NCBI GenBank assembly: GCA_038087875.1
Contig: CM075990.1
Location: forward strand, 14,820,001 to 14,884,000
Length of the DNA stretch: 64,000 bases
From: Malacoraja senta
Lineage: Eukaryota
Direction of reading: 5' to 3'
In this document: piece by piece, positions 3,334-55,096 of the stretch
How the letters are laid out: the number at the start of each line of letters is the position of its first letter
Position numbering within the stretch: position 1 is the first letter of the stretch
The notes under the pieces: model-generated
Databases searched by the model: none
What the model saw: the letters and a program-made list of their open reading frames with translations, nothing else
What the model was told of the DNA's origin: nothing
Made by a program: the position numbers and the translations under genes

Positions 3334-3376
3334 CTACAAGGGGAGAGGCTAGCCAGTTGTCATGGTTGACATGGTT

Positions 3377-3916
3377 CCTAATCTGAGGAAAGACATTCTT
3401 GCCATAGAGGGAGTACAGAGAAGGTTCACTAGACTGATTCCTGGGATGGCAGGACTTTCATATGAAGAAAGACTGGATAGACTCGGCTTGTACTCGCTAG
3501 AATTTAGAAGATTGAGGGGGGATCTTATAGAAACTTACAAAAGTCTTAAGGGGTTGGACAGGCTCGATGCAGGAAGATTATTCCCGATGTTGGGGAAGTC
3601 CAGAACTAGGGGTCACAGTTTAAGGATAAGAGGGAAGTCTTTTAGGACCGAGATGAGAAAATCATTTTTTACACAGAGAGTGGTGAATCTGTGGAATTCT
3701 CTGCCACAGAAGGTAGTTGAGGCCAGTTCATTGGCTATATTTAAGAGGGAGTTAGATGTGGCCCTTGTGGCTAAAGGGATCAGGGGGTATGGAGAGAAGG
3801 CAGGGATGGGATACTGAGTTGGATGATCAGCCATGATCATATCGAATGGTGGTGCAGGCTTGAAGGGCCGAATGGCCTCCTCCTGCACCTATTTTCTATG
3901 TTTCTATGTTTCTATG
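3377..3916 (+). mobile_element. 5'-truncated CR1 LINE (ORF2 C-terminus, 3' UTR, TTTCTATG tail)
   Basis: ORF 3362-3817 has EGVQRRFTRLIPGM..LGLYSLEFRRLRGDLIE..TRGH..FFTQRVVNLWNSLP; 8-mer tandem tail; near-identical to 14478-14897. Confidence 0.95.
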
Positions 3917-14335: not shown

Positions 14336-14477
14336 TTGTGCTCAAGGAGTGAGAAAAGTTAGGATAAATGGAATTTATTTTTAAGACGGAAATGTGGCAT
14401 GCCAAGTTCTCCACAAATCTGTACTGAGATCCCAAGCTCCTCACCTTCTTCACATTATCCTTATCTTGGCTGAAGGT

Positions 14478-14897
14478 AGAATTTAGGAGATTGAGAGGGG
14501 ATCTTATAGAAACGTACAAAATTCTTATGGGGTTGGACAGGCTAGATGCAGGAAGATTGTTCCCGATGTTGGGGAAGTCCAGGACAAGGGGTCACAGCTT
14601 AAGGATAAGGGGGAAATCCTTTAGGACCGAGATGAGGAAAAACGTTTTCACACAGAGAGTGGTGAATCTCTGGAACTCTCTGCCACAGAGGGTAGTTGAG
14701 GCCAGTTCATTGGCTATATTTAAGAGGGAGTTAGATGTGGCCCTTGTGGCTAAGGGGATCAGGGGGTATGGAGAGAAGGCAGGTACGGGATACTGAGTTG
14801 GATGATCAGCCATGATCATATTGAATGGCGGTGCAGGCTCGAAGGGCCGAATGGCCTACTCCTGCACCTATTTTCTATGTATCTATGTATCTATGTA
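14478..14897 (+). mobile_element. 5'-truncated young CR1 LINE
   Basis: ORF 14491-14796 RGDLIETYK..TRGH..RVVNLWNSLP; tctatgta-repeat tail. Confidence 0.95.
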
Positions 14898-15800: not shown

Positions 15801-17306
15801 AAGTCAAGTCAAGTGAGTTTATTGTCATGTGTCCCTGGTAGGACAATGAAATTCTTGCTTTGCTTGAGCACAACAGAACATAGTAGGCATTTACTACAAG
15901 GCATTCTATAAATATATACACAATGGTCAATATACTGATAAAGTGCAAATAACAGTATTGGCTAGTAAAGTTCAGTGTTATGTCCGAGCCAGGTTTAATA
16001 GCCTGATGGCTGTGGGGAAGTAGCTGTTCCTGAACCTGGTCGTTGCAGTCTTCAGGCTCCTGTACCTTCTACCTGAAGGTAGTAGGGAGATGAGTGTGTG
16101 GCCAGGATGGTGTGGGTCCTTGATGATGCTGCCAGCCTTTTTGAGGCAGCGACTGTGGTAGATCCCCTCGATGGAAGGGAGGTCAGAGCCGATGATGGAC
16201 TGGGCAGTGTTTACTACTTTTTGTAGTCTTTTCCTCTCCAGGGCACTCAAGTTGCTGAACCAAGCCACGATGCAACCGGTCAGCATGCTCTCTACTGTGC
16301 ACCTGTAGAAGTTGGAGAGAGTCCTCCTTGACAAACCGACTCTCCGTAATCTTCTCAGGAAGTAGAGGCGCTGATGTGCTTTCTTAATAATGGCATCATT
16401 GTTCTCGGACCAGGAAAGATCTTCAGAGATGTGCACGCCCAGGAATTTGAAGCTCTTGACCCTTTCAACCATCGACCCGTTGATATAAACGGGACTGTGG
16501 GTCCCCATCCTACTCCTTCCAAAGTCCACAATCAGTTCCTTGGTTTTGCTGGTGTTGAGGGCCAGGTTGTTGTGCTGGCACCATATGGACAGTTGCTCGA
16601 TCTCTCTTCTATACTCTGACTCATCCCCATCAGTGATACGTCCCACAACAGTGGTGTCATCAGCGAACTTGATGATGGAGTTCGCACTATGTCCGGCTAC
16701 GCAGTCATGAGTATAGAGTGAGTACAGCAGGGGACTGAGCACGCAGTCTTGAGGTGCTCCCGTGCTAATTGTTATAGAGTCTGACACATTTCCACCAATA
16801 CGAACAGACTGTGGTCTGAGAGTGAGGAAGTCGAGGATCCAATTGCAGAGGGATGCGCAGAGACCCAGTTCTGCGAGTTTGGTAGCCAACTTGGAGGGGA
16901 TGATTGTGTTAAATGCCGAGCTGTAATCGATGAATGACAGCCTGACATATGAGTTTTTGTTGTCCAAGTGGTCCAGAGCGGAGTGGAGGGCCAGCGAGAT
17001 CGCATCCACCGTTGATCTGTTGTGGCAGTAAGCGAACTGCAGTGGGTCCAGGTTTTTGTCGAGGTAGGAGTTGATCTGCGTCATGATCAACCTCTCAAAG
17101 CACTTCATCACCACAGGCGTTAGTGCCACAGGTCGATAGTCATTGAGGCACGTTACCTTACTCTTCTTGGGCACCGGTATAATTGATGCCCTTTTGAAGC
17201 AGGTGGGGACCTCAGAAGTGAGAGGTTGAAAATGTCTGTAAGAACTCCAGCCAGTTGGTCCGCACAGGTTTTTAGAACGCGACCAGGTATACCATCAGGT
17301 CCAGGC
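15801..17306 (-). mobile_element. 5'-truncated Rex1/Babar LINE
   Basis: RT ORF, short 3' UTR, CTTGA-repeat tail; possible GCATC TSD (15796-15800, 17307-17311); inserted within a Penelope-derived fragment. Confidence 0.95.
15978..17174 (-). CDS. Rex1/Babar reverse transcriptase (partial, no endonuclease, probably non-functional)
   Basis: 398-codon open frame with [56 protein letters not shown]. The upstream [11 protein letters not shown] block lies across a frameshift. Confidence 0.85.
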
Positions 17307-18864: not shown

Positions 18865-18910
18865 GCGGTGGGAGATTGCAACCTTCACGTGGTCCACCCT
18901 GAATGCAACC
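18865..18910 (+). ncRNA. HDV-like ribozyme, degenerate (8-nt deletion removes the predicted catalytic C)
   Basis: P1 GCGGTGG/CCACCCT, P2 GATTGCA/TGCAACC, P3 ACC/GGT, L3 TTCACGT. Confidence 0.7.
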
Positions 18911-18996
18911 AACCTGGCGCGCACAAACAGAAGATCAAACAGAACAAGTTGTCTTACAACTTTAGGCTGTGCACGCCACACGCAAGAAGAGAAGAA
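18865..18996 (+). mobile_element. Short non-autonomous retroposon with 5' HDV-like ribozyme and AAG-repeat tail (copy 1)
   Basis: Homologous end-to-end to 36714-36853 (-); TSD gcttatttct (18855-18864) / gcttaattct (18997-19006). Confidence 0.85.
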
Positions 18997-36338: not shown

Positions 36339-36713
36339 GGTAAAATTCCTCAGTCTGAAATGATAACCCCAATACTCTTTCCACACATGCTGCCTGCCCT
36401 GCAATTTGTGTTTTGGTTTCCAATCCTTAATTGGTATTTAAAAGAATGTTCACAGGGTTTATATAAAGAGATATACTTTTCCTTTTTATTTTGCTGTTGT
36501 GGGAATTGTTTACTGTTGTTGGAAGCTCAGCCAGTTTGATGTCCTGGCTGCATGCCAGTAATCCCATGGAACTGATGTCAGATATCAATGGTGGGAACCA
36601 GGATGTTCCATGAGAGATTACGTGGAACAGGGCCGTATAGTATAGGACCAGGCTCTTCAGCAGTACAGGAACAGGCTCTTCAGCCACAAGATGGCTGTGC
36701 TGAACATGATGCC

Positions 36714-36853
36714 TTATTCTTCTTCTTGCGTATGATGTGCACAGCCTAAAGTTGTAGGACAACTTGTTCTATTTGATCATATTTGATTGTGCCCGCCGGG
36801 TTGATTGCATTCGTCGAAACAGGGCGGACCACGTGAAGGTTGCAATCTTCCAC
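36714..36853 (-). mobile_element. Short non-autonomous retroposon with 5' HDV-like ribozyme and AAG-repeat tail (copy 2)
   Basis: Perfect 11-bp TSD aacatgatgcc (36703-36713, 36854-36864); homologous to 18865-18996. Confidence 0.9.
36803..36853 (-). ncRNA. HDV/CPEB3-like self-cleaving ribozyme motif (first 3 nt of P1 missing)
   Basis: Minus strand reads GTGG-AA-GATTGCA-ACC-TTCACGT-GGT-CCGCCCT-GT-TTCGA-CGAA-TGCAATC, the nested double-pseudoknot order P1,P2,P3,L3,P3',P1',J4/2,P2'. Confidence 0.8.
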
Positions 36854-36870
36854 AACATGATGCCAAATGA

Positions 36871-37048
36871 GTTAGTTTAGTTTATTGTCACATGTACCGA
36901 GGTACAGTGAAAAGCTTTTGCTGTGTGCTAACCAGTCAGCATAAAGACAAGACATGGTTACATTCGAGCCATCCACAGTGCACAGATACATGATGAAGAG
37001 AATAACGTTTAGTTCAAGGTAAAGTCCGATCAAAGATAGTCCGAGGGT
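36871..37048 (-). mobile_element. Rex1-like 3' UTR
   Basis: ttagtttagtttattgtcacatgtaccgaggtacagtgaaaagc. Confidence 0.8.
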
Positions 37049-37175
37049 AACTAATCCTTTCTACCTGCACATAAAACATATCCCTCCATTTCCTGCATAT
37101 TCATGTGCCTATCTAAAAGCTTCTTAAATGCCACAGTCATATCTGCTTCCACCACCACCCCTGGCAATATGTTCC

Positions 37176-53643: not shown

Positions 53644-54279
53644 TCAAAAGGGAATTGGGTCAGCAATTGAGGGCAAGGTAATGTACAGGGTTGCAAGGGA
53701 ACGGGACCCTGTGGATTGTCAGAAGCAGACCCATCATGGACGCAATGGATGGTCTGGTGTCTGTCTAAATGAATCTGTACGCAAAGTAACTGGGCCTTTT
53801 GCAGTTGAGCAGTCTGCTTTTATTTTACTTATTGCTTCACAGCAAATATCCCAAAAACGTTTAAATTTCCATTACCCATAAATAATGGGGCAAGCTCAGG
53901 TAGGAAATGTGATCGGCGTGGACGAGCTGGGCCAAAGGGCTTGTTTCCGTACTGTATAACTCTAAGACAGAATTATGCCTGGACAATGTTACAGTTGGTT
54001 CCCTTCAAATGAATGAAGCTTAAGTCACATCTGTTTAAAATCGTAACCCACAGATGCTGTTTTCTGCGGGGCGGAGTGGAGGGTGCGGGGAATATACCAT
54101 TTAAATGGGACAGCTGATGCTATTCTGTTTTGGTTTTTCTCTTTGGCAACTTTTGTAAATCTATACACTTTCTAGCCTTAATGAAAGACCAAAACTTGCC
54201 TCAAAATGATTTTAAAAAAGAGATTTTGGAGGTTTCATATTGGAATTAGTGAATTAATTGTAACACAGAACATAGCTTC

Positions 54280-55096
54280 ATGTTTAATGTGGATAAATGT
54301 GAGGTTATCCACTTTGGTAGCAAAAACAGGAAGGCAGCTTACTATCTAAATGGCGCCAAATTGGGAAAAGGGGAAGTACAACGGGATCTGGGGGTCCTTG
54401 TTCATCAGTCTTTGAAAGTAAGCATGCAGGTACAGCAGGCAGTGAAGAAAGCGAATGGCATGTTGGCCTTTATAACAAGAGGAGTTGAGTATAGGAGCAA
54501 AGAGGCTCTTCTGCAGTTGTTCAGGGCCCTAGTGAGACCACACCTGGAGTATTGTGTGCAGTTTTGGTCCCCTAATTTGAGGAAGGACATTCTTGCTGTT
54601 GAGGGAGTGCAGCGTAGGTTTACAAGGTTAATTCCCGGGATGGCGGGACTGTCATATGCTGAGAGAATGGAGCGGCTGGGCTTGTACACTCTGGAGTTTA
54701 GAAGGATGAGAGGGTATCTCATTGAAACATATAAGATTGTTAAGGGTTTGGACATGCTAGAGGCAGGAAACATGTTCCCGATGTTGGGGGAGTCCAGAAC
54801 CAAGGGCCTCGGTTTAAGAATAAGGGGAAGCCATTTAGAACGGAGACGAGGAAACGCTTTTTCTCACAGAGAGTTGTGAGTCTGTGGAATTCTCTGCCTC
54901 AGAGGGCGGTGGAGGCCAGTTCTCTGGATACTTTCAAGAGAGAGCTTGATAGGGCTCTTAAAGGTAGCGGAGTCAGGGGAGATGGGGAGAAGGCAGGAAC
55001 GGGGTACTGATTGGGGATGATCAGCCATGATCACATTGAATGGCGGTGCTGGCTCGAAGGGCCGAATGGCCTACTCCTGCACCTATTGTCTATTGT
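54280..55096 (+). mobile_element. 5'-truncated CR1 LINE
   Basis: ORF 54280-54879 FNVDKCEVIHFG..RDLGVLV..KKANGML..LVRPHLEYCVQFWSP; frameshift near 54840; 3' UTR and ctattgt tail. Confidence 0.95.

What the first reader, a model, noticed from the sequence alone, without database searches (positions are those of the whole stretch)
36714..36853. Compact HDV/CPEB3-like self-cleaving ribozyme heading a 140-bp retroposon
Seen: the minus strand reads GTGG AA GATTGCA ACC TTCACGT GGT CCGCCCT GT TTCGA CGAA TGCAATC. This gives a perfect 7-bp P2 (GATTGCA/TGCAATC), a 3-bp P3 (ACC/GGT) closing a 7-nt loop, a P1' strand ending in U, and a CGAA joiner before P2'. An ~80-nt body, an AAG-repeat tail and a perfect 11-bp TSD follow. 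Established: this is the strand order of the HDV nested double pseudoknot. As I recall it, the mammalian CPEB3 ribozyme has the same UUCACGU loop, GU linker and CGAA joiner. HDV-like ribozymes define the 5' ends of R2 and L1Tc/ingi retrotransposons and of their short derivatives (SIDEs, NARTc/RIME). Inference: this is a SINE-like element with no Pol III promoter, released from read-through transcripts by self-cleavage, with P4 shrunk to ~5 nt. The predicted catalytic C is plus-strand G36813. This copy lacks the first 3 nt of P1. I cannot tell whether the family is already catalogued.
Basis: partly seen in the sequence, partly recalled or inferred. Interest (0 to 1): 0.92.

Follow-up and report, generated by a model that had tools for sequence, protein, structure and literature searches.

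The report
Ribozyme-headed short retroposon, P4-less CPEB3 type
This is one slightly shortened copy of a 143-base jumping element, present thousands of times in this vertebrate genome, that begins exactly at the predicted cut site of a very small hepatitis-delta/CPEB3-type self-cutting RNA fold.

Summary
The sequence is as described: motifs, (AAG)n tail and perfect 11-bp target-site duplication. It belongs to a family with 5,738 core matches in its own 1.94-Gb genome. Of 4,547 copies with an intact 5' region, 3,896 (86%) begin GGGGTGG. Duplicated target sequence abuts G1 directly.

Rfam does not call the head (best 14.4 bits). However, the same genome holds LINEs (an endonuclease plus reverse-transcriptase ORF, RTE-like) and a second short family whose heads pass Rfam's CPEB3_ribozyme cut-off. 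A model built from those families without this one finds full-length copies at 28-30 bits, E about 1e-5.

Across families, P1, P2 and P3 keep pairing through compensatory changes: 96.8% of cells paired against 36-46% in slid controls. L3, the GU linker and the J4/2 cytosine stay fixed. P4 is one U-A pair plus three bases.

All sampled LINE lineages share the (AAG)n tail.

Cleavage itself is untested. It is a new variant of a known kind.

The parts
36854..36864 (-). 5' target-site duplication GGCATCATGTT
   Evidence: An identical 11-mer lies at 36703-36713.
36850..36853 (-). Remnant of the P1 5' strand (GTGG = nt 4-7 of the full-length element). G1-G3 are missing in this copy.
   Evidence: 3,896 of 4,547 copies carry GGGGTGG.
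36848..36849 (-). J1/2 (AA; GA in the older subfamily)
36841..36847 (-). P2 5' strand GATTGCA
   Evidence: helix 10-16/72-78 has 6 of 7 pairs with changes on both sides across families and 95.7% of cells paired.
36838..36840 (-). P3 5' strand ACC
   Evidence: 2 of 3 pairs change on both sides.
36831..36837 (-). L3 UUCACGU. U20 (36837) and G25 (36832) are the reverse-wobble signature; C22 (36835) is the P1.1 partner.
   Evidence: Invariant in 20 of 20 aligned sequences and identical to the Rfam CPEB3 consensus. Roles of these bases are taken from PMC3386971 and PMC4836649.
36828..36830 (-). P3 3' strand GGT
36821..36827 (-). P1 3' strand CCGCCCT. The final T would pair with G1 as a G.U wobble.
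   Evidence: helix 1-7/30-36 is 99.2% paired, with 3 pairs changed on both sides. The older subfamily has CCACCCT (U5-A instead of U5.G).
36819..36820 (-). GU linker (P1.1 3' strand)
   Evidence: Invariant, as in the CPEB3 consensus.
36814..36818 (-). Vestigial P4: UUCGA (one possible U-A pair around UCG)
   Evidence: Column pair 39-67 is U-A in the two short families and C-G where P4 is full length.
36810..36813 (-). J4/2 CGAA. The predicted catalytic C44 is plus-strand G36813.
   Evidence: C is present in at least 90% of rows and AA is invariant. Same letters as the CPEB3 consensus.
36803..36809 (-). P2 3' strand TGCAATC; end of the 54-nt ribozyme-like head
36728..36802 (-). Body. A long-range stem (GGCGUGCAC/GUGCACACC in family copies) is predicted to enclose the hairpin AAGTTGT-CCT-ACAACTT (36749-36765).
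   Evidence: fold of a family copy gives -17.6 kcal/mol, z = -2.34, and 4 of 200 shuffles fold as well. No match to the sampled LINE 3' UTRs.
36714..36727 (-). 3' tail AAGAAGAAGAATAA, i.e. (AAG)n
   Evidence: The same kind of tail ends all sampled RTE-like LINE lineages.
36703..36713 (-). 3' target-site duplication GGCATCATGTT
18868..18990 (+). Second, older copy of the same family. It has lost TTTCGACG, including the predicted catalytic C.
   Evidence: Not found by model R1.

Best explanation
The element is a 5'-shortened copy of a ~143-nt non-autonomous non-LTR retroposon with no promoter of its own. In full-length copies the first 54 nt form a CPEB3-type HDV-like nested double pseudoknot. 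It has P1 of 7 bp with G1.U36, P2 of 7 bp, P3 of 3 bp, L3 UUCACGU, a GU linker, and J4/2 CGAA. P4 is cut down to one U-A pair plus three bases.

Proposed cycle: a copy lying in sense orientation inside some host or transposon transcript is read through. The head folds and C44 with bound Mg2+ cuts the chain just 5' of G1, so the retroposon RNA starts at G1. The reverse transcriptase of a co-resident RTE-like LINE primes on the (AAG)n tail at a nicked target and copies the RNA to its 5' end. The new copy is flanked by a 10-13-bp duplication.

Shown: the anatomy, copy number, exact 5' ends, duplications, homology to heads that pass Rfam's CPEB3 cut-off, compensatory changes, and LINEs with the same tail. 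Inferred: catalysis, read-through transcription, and which LINE supplies the enzyme. The window copy lacks G1-G3, so it could not regenerate its own 5' end.
For: 1. Copy number. The 47-nt core has 5,738 matches at up to 3 mismatches; the reversed pattern has 0.

2. 5' ends. 3,896 of 4,547 copies start GGGGTGG, and only 518 of those have a fifth G. Among 47 non-redundant copies in 60 loci, 36 have the full P1 strand. In 31 of those 36, a duplication of at least 10 nt (up to 1 mismatch) abuts G1. In contigs of 4 coded organisms, sequence beyond 36853 reads CCC and then diverges.

3. Sister families. RF00622 on the own genome gives 39 of 60 listed matches at or over 35 bits, best 64.2; the control gave 0 of 14 prokaryote genomes over the cut-off. 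Examples: a LINE head (L046) at 47.4 bits and short family B (L060) at 36.3 bits.

4. Independent model. R1, built from 16 sequences with no member of this family, finds 6 of 6 full-length copies tested at 28.3-30.1 bits (E 1.8e-5 to 4.7e-5). It finds the window copy at 18.4 bits (E 0.013). Nothing else appears in 82,813 bases at E up to 10.

5. Structure. On 20 sequences from four families, 96.8% of 441 cells pair, against 36.3-45.8% when the partner is slid. 14 pairs change on both sides, against 0-4. The covariation score is 0.432, against 0.095 or less. 0 of 500 shuffles reach the observed paired percentage or score.

6. Selection after P4 loss. This family and family B share the same P4-less linker (GUUUCGACGAAU vs GUUUCCACCAAU). 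They nevertheless differ at 5 of 7 P2 pairs and 2 of 3 P3 pairs, always compensated. This implies selection on the fold after P4 was lost.

7. Signature bases. U20, G25, C22, G37 and the J4/2 C-x-A-A are all present (roles from PMC3386971 and PMC4836649).

8. Precedent. P4-less HDV-like ribozymes exist and cleave in vitro (PMC10879173, abstract and introduction passages).

9. Possible drivers. One LINE copy has a 934-aa ORF with Exo_endo_phos and RVT_1 domains behind a CPEB3-type head. All sampled lineages end in (AAG)n-like tails.
Against: No cleavage assay exists and no RNA data are available. No public Rfam model calls this family: nothing at gathering on the window, no HDV/CPEB3 hit at E up to 10 on the window copy, and only RF02682 at 14.4 bits (cut-off 44, E 2.2) on a full-length copy.

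The nested minimum free energy of the 54-mer is ordinary: -12.6 kcal/mol, z = 0.31, with 119 of 200 shuffles folding as well. Pseudoknots are not modelled there.

The covariation rests on four to six families, so on few independent events. I chose 20 of 45 distinct sequences for that alignment. Within the family the copies are too alike to covary.

The body shows no similarity to any sampled LINE 3' UTR beyond the tail. No LINE carries the same head with a full P4. The enzyme donor is therefore unassigned.

Sister family B starts with four G although its P1 3' strand (GGCCCCU) would need five for a G1.U register. The rule that the 5' end equals the canonical cut site is therefore not clean in every family.
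Confidence: 0.72

Rival explanations
1. The head is a conserved structural module descended from a ribozyme but no longer catalytic, for example a protein-binding or RNA-stabilising 5' pseudoknot. The uniform G1 start would then come from a transcription start or another nuclease.
For: P4 is nearly gone. Public models score the head far below their cut-offs. No cleavage or RNA data exist. In R2 elements the element's protein binds a 5' pseudoknot within the ribozyme region (PMC6765202, passage read), so a fold can be kept for reasons other than cutting.
Against: All bases known to matter for catalysis are kept unchanged between families while the helices drift: U20, G25, the J4/2 C and AA, and the G1.U pair. 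P4-less relatives are active in vitro (PMC10879173). No promoter-like head was found.
Confidence: 0.17
2. It is an ordinary Pol III SINE, or a 5'-truncated LINE tail, and the HDV-like pairing is chance.
For: It is short, high in copy number, and has a LINE-type tail and duplications. The nested fold energy is unremarkable.
Against: ARAGORN finds no tRNA-like gene in 36500-37100. Rfam gives no tRNA, 5S or 7SL hit. 86% of copies share one exact 5' end, which is unlike truncated LINE tails. An independent model detects the head at E about 1e-5. Slid-partner controls collapse to 36-46% pairing.
Confidence: 0.04
3. It is a classic internally deleted LINE (a SIDE) whose parent LINE has the same head and the same 3' UTR.
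For: The layout of a ribozyme head plus a LINE-type tail is that of R2 SIDEs (PMC3414825). An 11-mer of the head (GAGATTGCAAC) recurs near the 3' end of one LINE lineage.
Against: No genomic sequence has this head with a longer P4: 1 and 5 matches, all looking like mutated short copies. The body has no significant match to two full LINE copies or to eight LINE 3' ends. Only part of roughly 10,617 first-look LINE candidates could be sampled.
Confidence: 0.07

Closest known systems
Mammalian CPEB3 ribozyme (Rfam RF00622)
   Same: It has the same strand order and an identical L3 (UUCACGU). It also shares the GU after P1, the CGAA before P2', a 7-bp P1 starting with a G run and closed by G1.U, and a 3-bp P3 (consensus).
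   Different: P4 (7 bp plus tetraloop) is replaced by 5 nt. The P1 distal half, P2 and P3 have different letters. The score is below RF00622's cut-off (not listed). It is dispersed in thousands of copies as the head of a retroposon, not a single copy in a CPEB3 intron.
HDV-like ribozymes at the 5' ends of RTE, Baggins, R2 and L1Tc LINEs
   Same: The position at the very 5' end of a promoter-less non-LTR element is the same. So is the presumed role of cutting the element out of a co-transcript (PMC6765202 and PMC7761336, passages read). The same genome has such LINEs.
   Different: This element is non-coding, 143 nt long and lacks P4. The primary papers (Webb 2009, Ruminski 2011) were not held, so their catalogues could not be checked.
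R2 SIDEs and R2/R1 hybrid SIDEs of Drosophila; NARTc of Trypanosoma cruzi
   Same: These are short non-autonomous elements made of a 5' HDV-like ribozyme plus a 3' end used by a LINE's machinery (PMC3414825, abstract and passages; PMC3383444, abstract in the search listing).
   Different: SIDEs sit in rDNA sites in few copies and keep recognisable LINE UTR sequence. This family is dispersed in at least 5,738 copies, shares only the (AAG)n tail with the sampled LINEs, and has a minimal ribozyme.
Minimal (P4-less) HDV-like ribozymes: drz-Mtgn-1 and phage theta ribozymes
   Same: The P4 domain is lost while the double pseudoknot core is kept, giving a size of about 50-55 nt (PMC10879173, introduction passage).
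   Different: Those come from metagenomes and gut phages, next to tRNAs. This one is in a vertebrate genome, heads a retroposon, and is demonstrably derived from the CPEB3-type lineage.
Schistosome Sm-alpha-type SINEs with hammerhead ribozymes
   Same: These are short interspersed retroposons carrying a self-cleaving ribozyme that trims their transcripts (PMC6765202, passage read).
   Different: The ribozyme class differs (hammerhead). Those SINEs are reported as Pol III-transcribed and often tandem. This element has no Pol III-type head.

Membership tests
HDV-like (delta) self-cleaving ribozymes | Nested double pseudoknot with strand order P1-P2-P3-P3'-P1'-P1.1-P4-P4'-P2' | tested here: met
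   P1, P2 and P3 are 95.7-99.2% paired across four families and collapse when the partner is slid. P4 is vestigial (1 bp plus 3 nt).
HDV-like (delta) self-cleaving ribozymes | Cleavage-site G1 paired as a G.U wobble at the base of P1 | tested here: met
   G.U in 13 of 13 rows that have column 1. Full-length copies start GGGG. This is not met in the window copy itself, which lacks G1-G3.
HDV-like (delta) self-cleaving ribozymes | L3 U and G forming the reverse wobble (U20, G25), called part of the signature in PMC3386971 | tested here: met
   Both bases are invariant in 20 of 20 rows. Formation of the pair itself is not testable here.
HDV-like (delta) self-cleaving ribozymes | Catalytic cytosine at the start of a 4-nt J4/2 just before P2' | tested here: met
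   CGAA at 36810-36813. C is nearly invariant and AA invariant across families. CPEB3 has a 4-nt J4/2 holding the active-site C (PMC4836649).
HDV-like (delta) self-cleaving ribozymes | P1.1 mini-helix between L3 and the linker after P1 | tested here: inconclusive
   The bases match CPEB3's reported register (C22-G37 plus U21.U38; PMC4836649). The register I entered (23-38, 24-37) differs from that. All of these columns are invariant, so the counts say nothing either way.
HDV-like (delta) self-cleaving ribozymes | Mg2+-dependent self-cleavage 5' of G1 | not testable with these tools
No RNA run is on record.
Rfam CPEB3_ribozyme (RF00622) and other Rfam HDV models | Score at or above the curated gathering cut-off | tested here: not met
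   no RF00622 or RF00094 hit at E up to 10. RF02682 gives 14.4 bits against a cut-off of 44. Sister families in the same genome do pass RF00622.
CPEB3-type ribozyme lineage of this genome (own model R1, built without this family) | Significant end-to-end match to a covariance model of the sister families | tested here: met
   6 of 6 full-length copies at 28.3-30.1 bits, E 1.8e-5 to 4.7e-5. The window copy scores 18.4 bits, E 0.013. E-values are rough because calibration was short.
Non-autonomous non-LTR retroposon | Variable target-site duplications, a 3' repeat tail and 5' truncations | tested here: met
   duplications of 10-16 nt (up to 1 mismatch) in 36 of 47 copies, with (AAG)n tails. 11 of 47 copies lack or have mutated 1-4 nt at the 5' end.
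SIDE (internally deleted LINE) | 5' and 3' ends recognisably identical to a parent LINE | tested here: not met
   no LINE has this head and no body similarity was found. Only the tail is shared. LINE sampling was incomplete.
Pol III SINE (tRNA, 5S or 7SL head) | Head derived from a Pol III gene with an internal promoter | tested here: not met
   no tRNA, 5S or 7SL match.

The most novel reading that the evidence does not exclude
The 54-nt P4-less head is an active ribozyme, and the smallest natural CPEB3-type one. It is the only processing signal of the most prolific retroposon found here. More broadly, CPEB3-type ribozymes would be the ancestral 5' heads of RTE-like LINEs in a fish-like vertebrate. 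The single-copy mammalian CPEB3 ribozyme, for which the literature says no outgroup exists (PMC8233481), would then be an exapted LINE head.
Probability: 0.4. Interest if true: 0.8.

Novelty: new variant of a known kind. Interest (0 to 1): 0.64.

Why it matters
Ribozyme-headed LINEs and a few short derivatives are known. P4-less HDV-like ribozymes, however, have so far come from metagenomes and phages, and a 2024 paper says of minimal variants in general that their origin and roles remain to be determined (PMC10879173). Here a P4-less form has a clear eukaryotic setting, a visible descent from full-length CPEB3-type heads, and a copy number in the thousands. That makes it a natural experiment on how little RNA is needed for this fold.

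The same genome also offers multi-copy relatives of the CPEB3 ribozyme that pass the Rfam cut-off. The host appears to be non-mammalian, although this is inferred only. [quoted passage not shown] If the host is indeed non-mammalian, these sequences supply the missing outgroup and make a transposon origin of the CPEB3 ribozyme testable.

Tried and rejected
- **Rfam.** The gathering scan of the whole window gave 0 hits. The E up to 10 scan of the window copy gave only a chance snoRNA match.
- **RNA evidence.** No RNA holder is listed for the stretch. The four runs laid were contigs only and cannot show RNA starts.
- **Parent LINE.** A pattern allowing a 7-37-nt P4 gave 1 hit, a small duplication. 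A pattern requiring two non-T bases after CCCTGT gave 5 hits.
- **Body origin.** blastn-short of the element against two full LINE copies and eight LINE 3' ends found only the tail and 9-11-mers.
- **Shared 3' structure.** No common 3' structure between the element and four LINE 3' ends or family B was seen.
- **Fold energy.** The nested energy of the head is not better than shuffles.
- **Mis-specified pattern.** One pattern had 7 N instead of 6 and returned noise: 9 hits against 37 in the control. Corrected: 75 hits against 7.
- **Loci allowance.** Eight short stretches were fetched instead.
- **Papers not held.** Ruminski 2011, Webb 2009 and Webb and Luptak 2011 were unavailable, so their lists of ribozyme-bearing elements were not seen.
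- **Earlier findings of this scan.** Nothing on this genome or sequence. Two unrelated notes turned up by words.
- **Not available.** Dfam and Repbase could not be searched. The host's identity was not pursued beyond the resident LINE proteins: the named matches include teleosts and Xenopus and, for the RTE-like ORF, insects, amphioxus, echinoderms, fish and Anolis. That its repeats resemble those of cartilaginous fish is my recollection only.

Full report
**Observation**

GGCATCATGTT is present on both sides, and the tail is AAGAAGAAGAATAA. The window is G000:C14:14820001-14884000 of a 1.94-Gb assembly. The 29-nt core occurs twice in the window at up to 3 mismatches, where shuffles give none. 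The second copy (18868-18990, +) has lost 8 nt, including the predicted catalytic C.

**The family and its ends**

A DNA search of the own genome gave 1,073 first-look candidates. All 40 that were scored are 95-100% identical. An exact-count pattern search found 5,738 matches to the 47-nt core at up to 3 mismatches, and 0 for the reversed pattern.

In the fetched loci nearly every copy has GGG directly before the GTGG with which the window copy starts. The genome-wide counts are:
- 4,547 copies carry GTGGRAGATTGCAACCTTCACGTGG.
- 3,378 of these have exactly four G preceded by a non-G.
- 518 have five or more G.

So 3,896 of 4,547 (86%) begin GGGGTGG and 651 (14%) are shorter, like the window copy.

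In 47 non-redundant copies from 60 loci, 36 have the whole 7-nt strand. In 31 of those 36, a duplication of at least 10 nt (up to 1 mismatch allowed, so lengths may be over-read by one) abuts G1.

Two subfamilies exist. One has GGGGTGGAAG with P1' CCGCCCT. The other, found with the older window copy as query, has GGGGTGGGAG with P1' CCACCCT. Pair 5 is thus U.G in one and U-A in the other.

Contigs of four coded organisms hold the element at 90% likeness or more. Their sequence beyond 36853 reads CCC and then diverges.

**Is the head an HDV/CPEB3-type ribozyme?**

Public models do not say so:
- Nothing at gathering in the window.
- No HDV or CPEB3 hit at E up to 10 on the window copy.
- On a full-length copy, only RF02682 at 14.4 bits against a cut-off of 44.

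The decisive evidence came from the same genome. RF00622 (mammalian CPEB3 ribozyme) gave 60 listed matches, 39 of them at or over its 35-bit cut-off, with a best of 64.2. None of 14 control prokaryote genomes was over the cut-off. These matches fall into several families:

| Family | What it is | Evidence |
|---|---|---|
| A | Heads a ~3.15-kb element with one 934-aa ORF (Exo_endo_phos and RVT_1), ending CACGAAAAGAAGAAGAAG and flanked by a duplication | |
| C, D, E | Further heads with a full P4. C and E continue into LINE-like 5' regions. D showed no LINE ORF downstream | |
| B | A second short element of ~185 bp. Its 53-nt head has the same P4-less linker as the target | L060: 36.3 bits, |

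From its architecture I call family A RTE-like. The clade was not tested by a tree. Its protein is 46-63% identical over most of its length to reverse transcriptases from insects, amphioxus, echinoderms, fish and Anolis.

I then built a covariance model (R1) from 16 sequences of families A-E, with no member of the target family. Results:
- All 6 full-length target copies tested: 28.3-30.1 bits, E 1.8e-5 to 4.7e-5.
- The window copy: 18.4 bits, E 0.013.
- Nothing else in 82,813 bases at E up to 10.

E-values are rough because calibration was short.

**Covariation**

I aligned 20 sequences, chosen from 45 distinct ones: 7 from the target family, 6 from B, 5 from A and 2 from D. Decayed C and E copies and near-identical target copies were left out. 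Results for the double-pseudoknot structure:

| Measure | Observed | Slid-partner controls |
|---|---|---|
| Cells paired (of 441) | 96.8% | 36.3-45.8% |
| Pairs changed on both sides | 14 | 0-4 |
| Covariation score | 0.432 | 0.095 or less |

No shuffle of 500 reached the observed pairing or score. The count of further pair types, however, was not above shuffles (425 of 500 reached it).

Per helix:
- P1: 3 pairs with double changes.
- P2: 6 of 7.
- P3: 2 of 3.
- The first P4 pair is U-A in the two minimal families and C-G where P4 is full length.

L3, the GU linker and the J4/2 C..AA do not vary.

The target and B share the linker (GUUUCGACGAAU against GUUUCCACCAAU). They still differ, always with compensation, at 5 P2 pairs and 2 P3 pairs. 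The fold was therefore maintained after P4 was lost.

Two cautions apply. First, these are few independent events. Second, the P1.1 register I entered (23-38, 24-37) is not the one reported for CPEB3, which is one G-C plus a U-U pair, with C22 in P1.1 (PMC4836649, passages). All of these columns are invariant, so nothing was tested there.

**Energetics**

The nested minimum free energy fold of the 54-mer is P1 plus part of P3 (-12.6 kcal/mol). It leaves both P2 strands free, but it is no better than shuffles (z = 0.31). The GU-UUCG-AC hairpin that could hide the catalytic C raises the energy from -12.4 to -10.7 kcal/mol. It is not a trap.

**Which enzyme moves it?**

The C-terminal part of the family A protein found 144 scored places out of 10,617 first-look candidates. 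These comprise family A at 85-100% identity and other lineages at 50-60%. The eight 3' ends I could still fetch, together with family A's own end, finish in (AAG)n-like tails.

The target's body has no significant match to them beyond the tail. No shared 3' fold was seen. No sequence in the genome combines the target's P1 and P3 with a longer P4.

The element is therefore best described as a ribozyme head, plus an unrelated structured body, plus the LINE-type tail. It is not a demonstrable internal deletion of a living LINE. The donor LINE remains inferred.

**Not a Pol III SINE**

No tRNA-like gene was found, and there is no tRNA, 5S or 7SL match.

**Literature**

- A review states that HDV-like ribozymes occur in Baggins elements and RTEs. 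These lack promoters and are transcribed from introns or from upstream elements. [quoted passage not shown]
- R2 SIDEs are the clearest short derivatives (PMC3414825, abstract and passages). NARTc shares L1Tc's ribozyme (PMC3383444, abstract in the listing).
- Minimal HDV-like ribozymes lacking P4 were first found in metagenomes. Their origin and functions are called undetermined, apart from the phage theta ribozymes (PMC10879173, passages).

Eight literature searches were run in all. The five aimed at prior reports of such an element, and one further search for 'CPEB3 ribozyme' with 'shark', found no report of a P4-less HDV-like ribozyme heading a vertebrate retroposon. Nor did they find CPEB3-type heads on LINEs. 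The key primary papers were not held, and Dfam and Repbase are not available here. Prior cataloguing therefore cannot be excluded.

**Verdict**

This is one 5'-shortened, hence self-processing-dead, copy of a very successful promoter-less retroposon. Its full-length RNA starts at the predicted cleavage site of a minimal CPEB3-type HDV-like ribozyme. Catalysis, read-through transcription and the identity of the mobilising LINE are inferred, not shown.

Noticed in passing
L041:86-3234 (G000:C1:217550400-217559400); also L031-L040, L044-L048: RTE-like LINEs of this genome begin with ribozyme-like heads that pass Rfam's mammalian CPEB3_ribozyme cut-off (up to 64.2 bits). [quoted passage not shown] The host looks non-mammalian only by inference from the matches of its LINE proteins.
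   Followed up: partly
L045:401-470 (family C; also L050, L053): This head resembles the Rfam CPEB3 consensus even in helices whose letters are free to vary (P2 GCAGGA/UCCUGC, P4 CAGAUUC...), at 47.7 bits. Its downstream sequence resembles the start region of the family A LINE. It hints that the mammalian ribozyme descends from such a LINE head.
   Followed up: partly
L049, L051, L055-L063 (e.g. L060:401-453, minus strand): A second short retroposon family (~185 bp, (AAG)n tail, 11-12-bp duplications) has a 53-nt P4-less head scoring 35-44 bits on RF00622. It starts with four G although its P1 3' strand GGCCCCU would need five for a G1.U register. Its cut site or P1 register is therefore unclear.
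   Followed up: partly
Genome-wide listing (first 100 places): The base just before full-length copies is T in 67, A in 23 and C in 10 of the first 100 non-G cases. It lies inside the duplication, so it probably reflects a target-site preference.
   Followed up: no
L102-L104 (3' ends of one RTE-like lineage): The 3' end ...GAGATTGCAACGGACTCGAAGAAG shares an 11-mer with nt 8-18 of the older target subfamily. It also shares GGACTCGA..AAGAAG with the 3' end of short family B, which may point to B's driver.
   Followed up: no
window 36872-37045: Another very high-copy repeat, with (GTTTA)n-like ends, abuts the element. Depth in all four laid runs is as high as or higher than over the element.
   Followed up: no
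window 15978-17294 (-), 3353-3817 (+), 14428-14796 (+), 54253-54879 (+): These are fragments of other LINE reverse transcriptases (a 438-aa open frame; the best named matches are teleost and Xenopus proteins at 50-64% identity). The window is largely made of repeats.
   Followed up: partly
Genome-wide: Intact non-target CPEB3-type cores (GTTCACGT-N6-CCCTGT) number only 75, against 7 for the control. About 20 of these are target copies with one change, and six identical ones are clustered on C2 at 2.6-3.8 Mb. The P4-less target family outnumbers all full-P4 heads by far.
   Followed up: no
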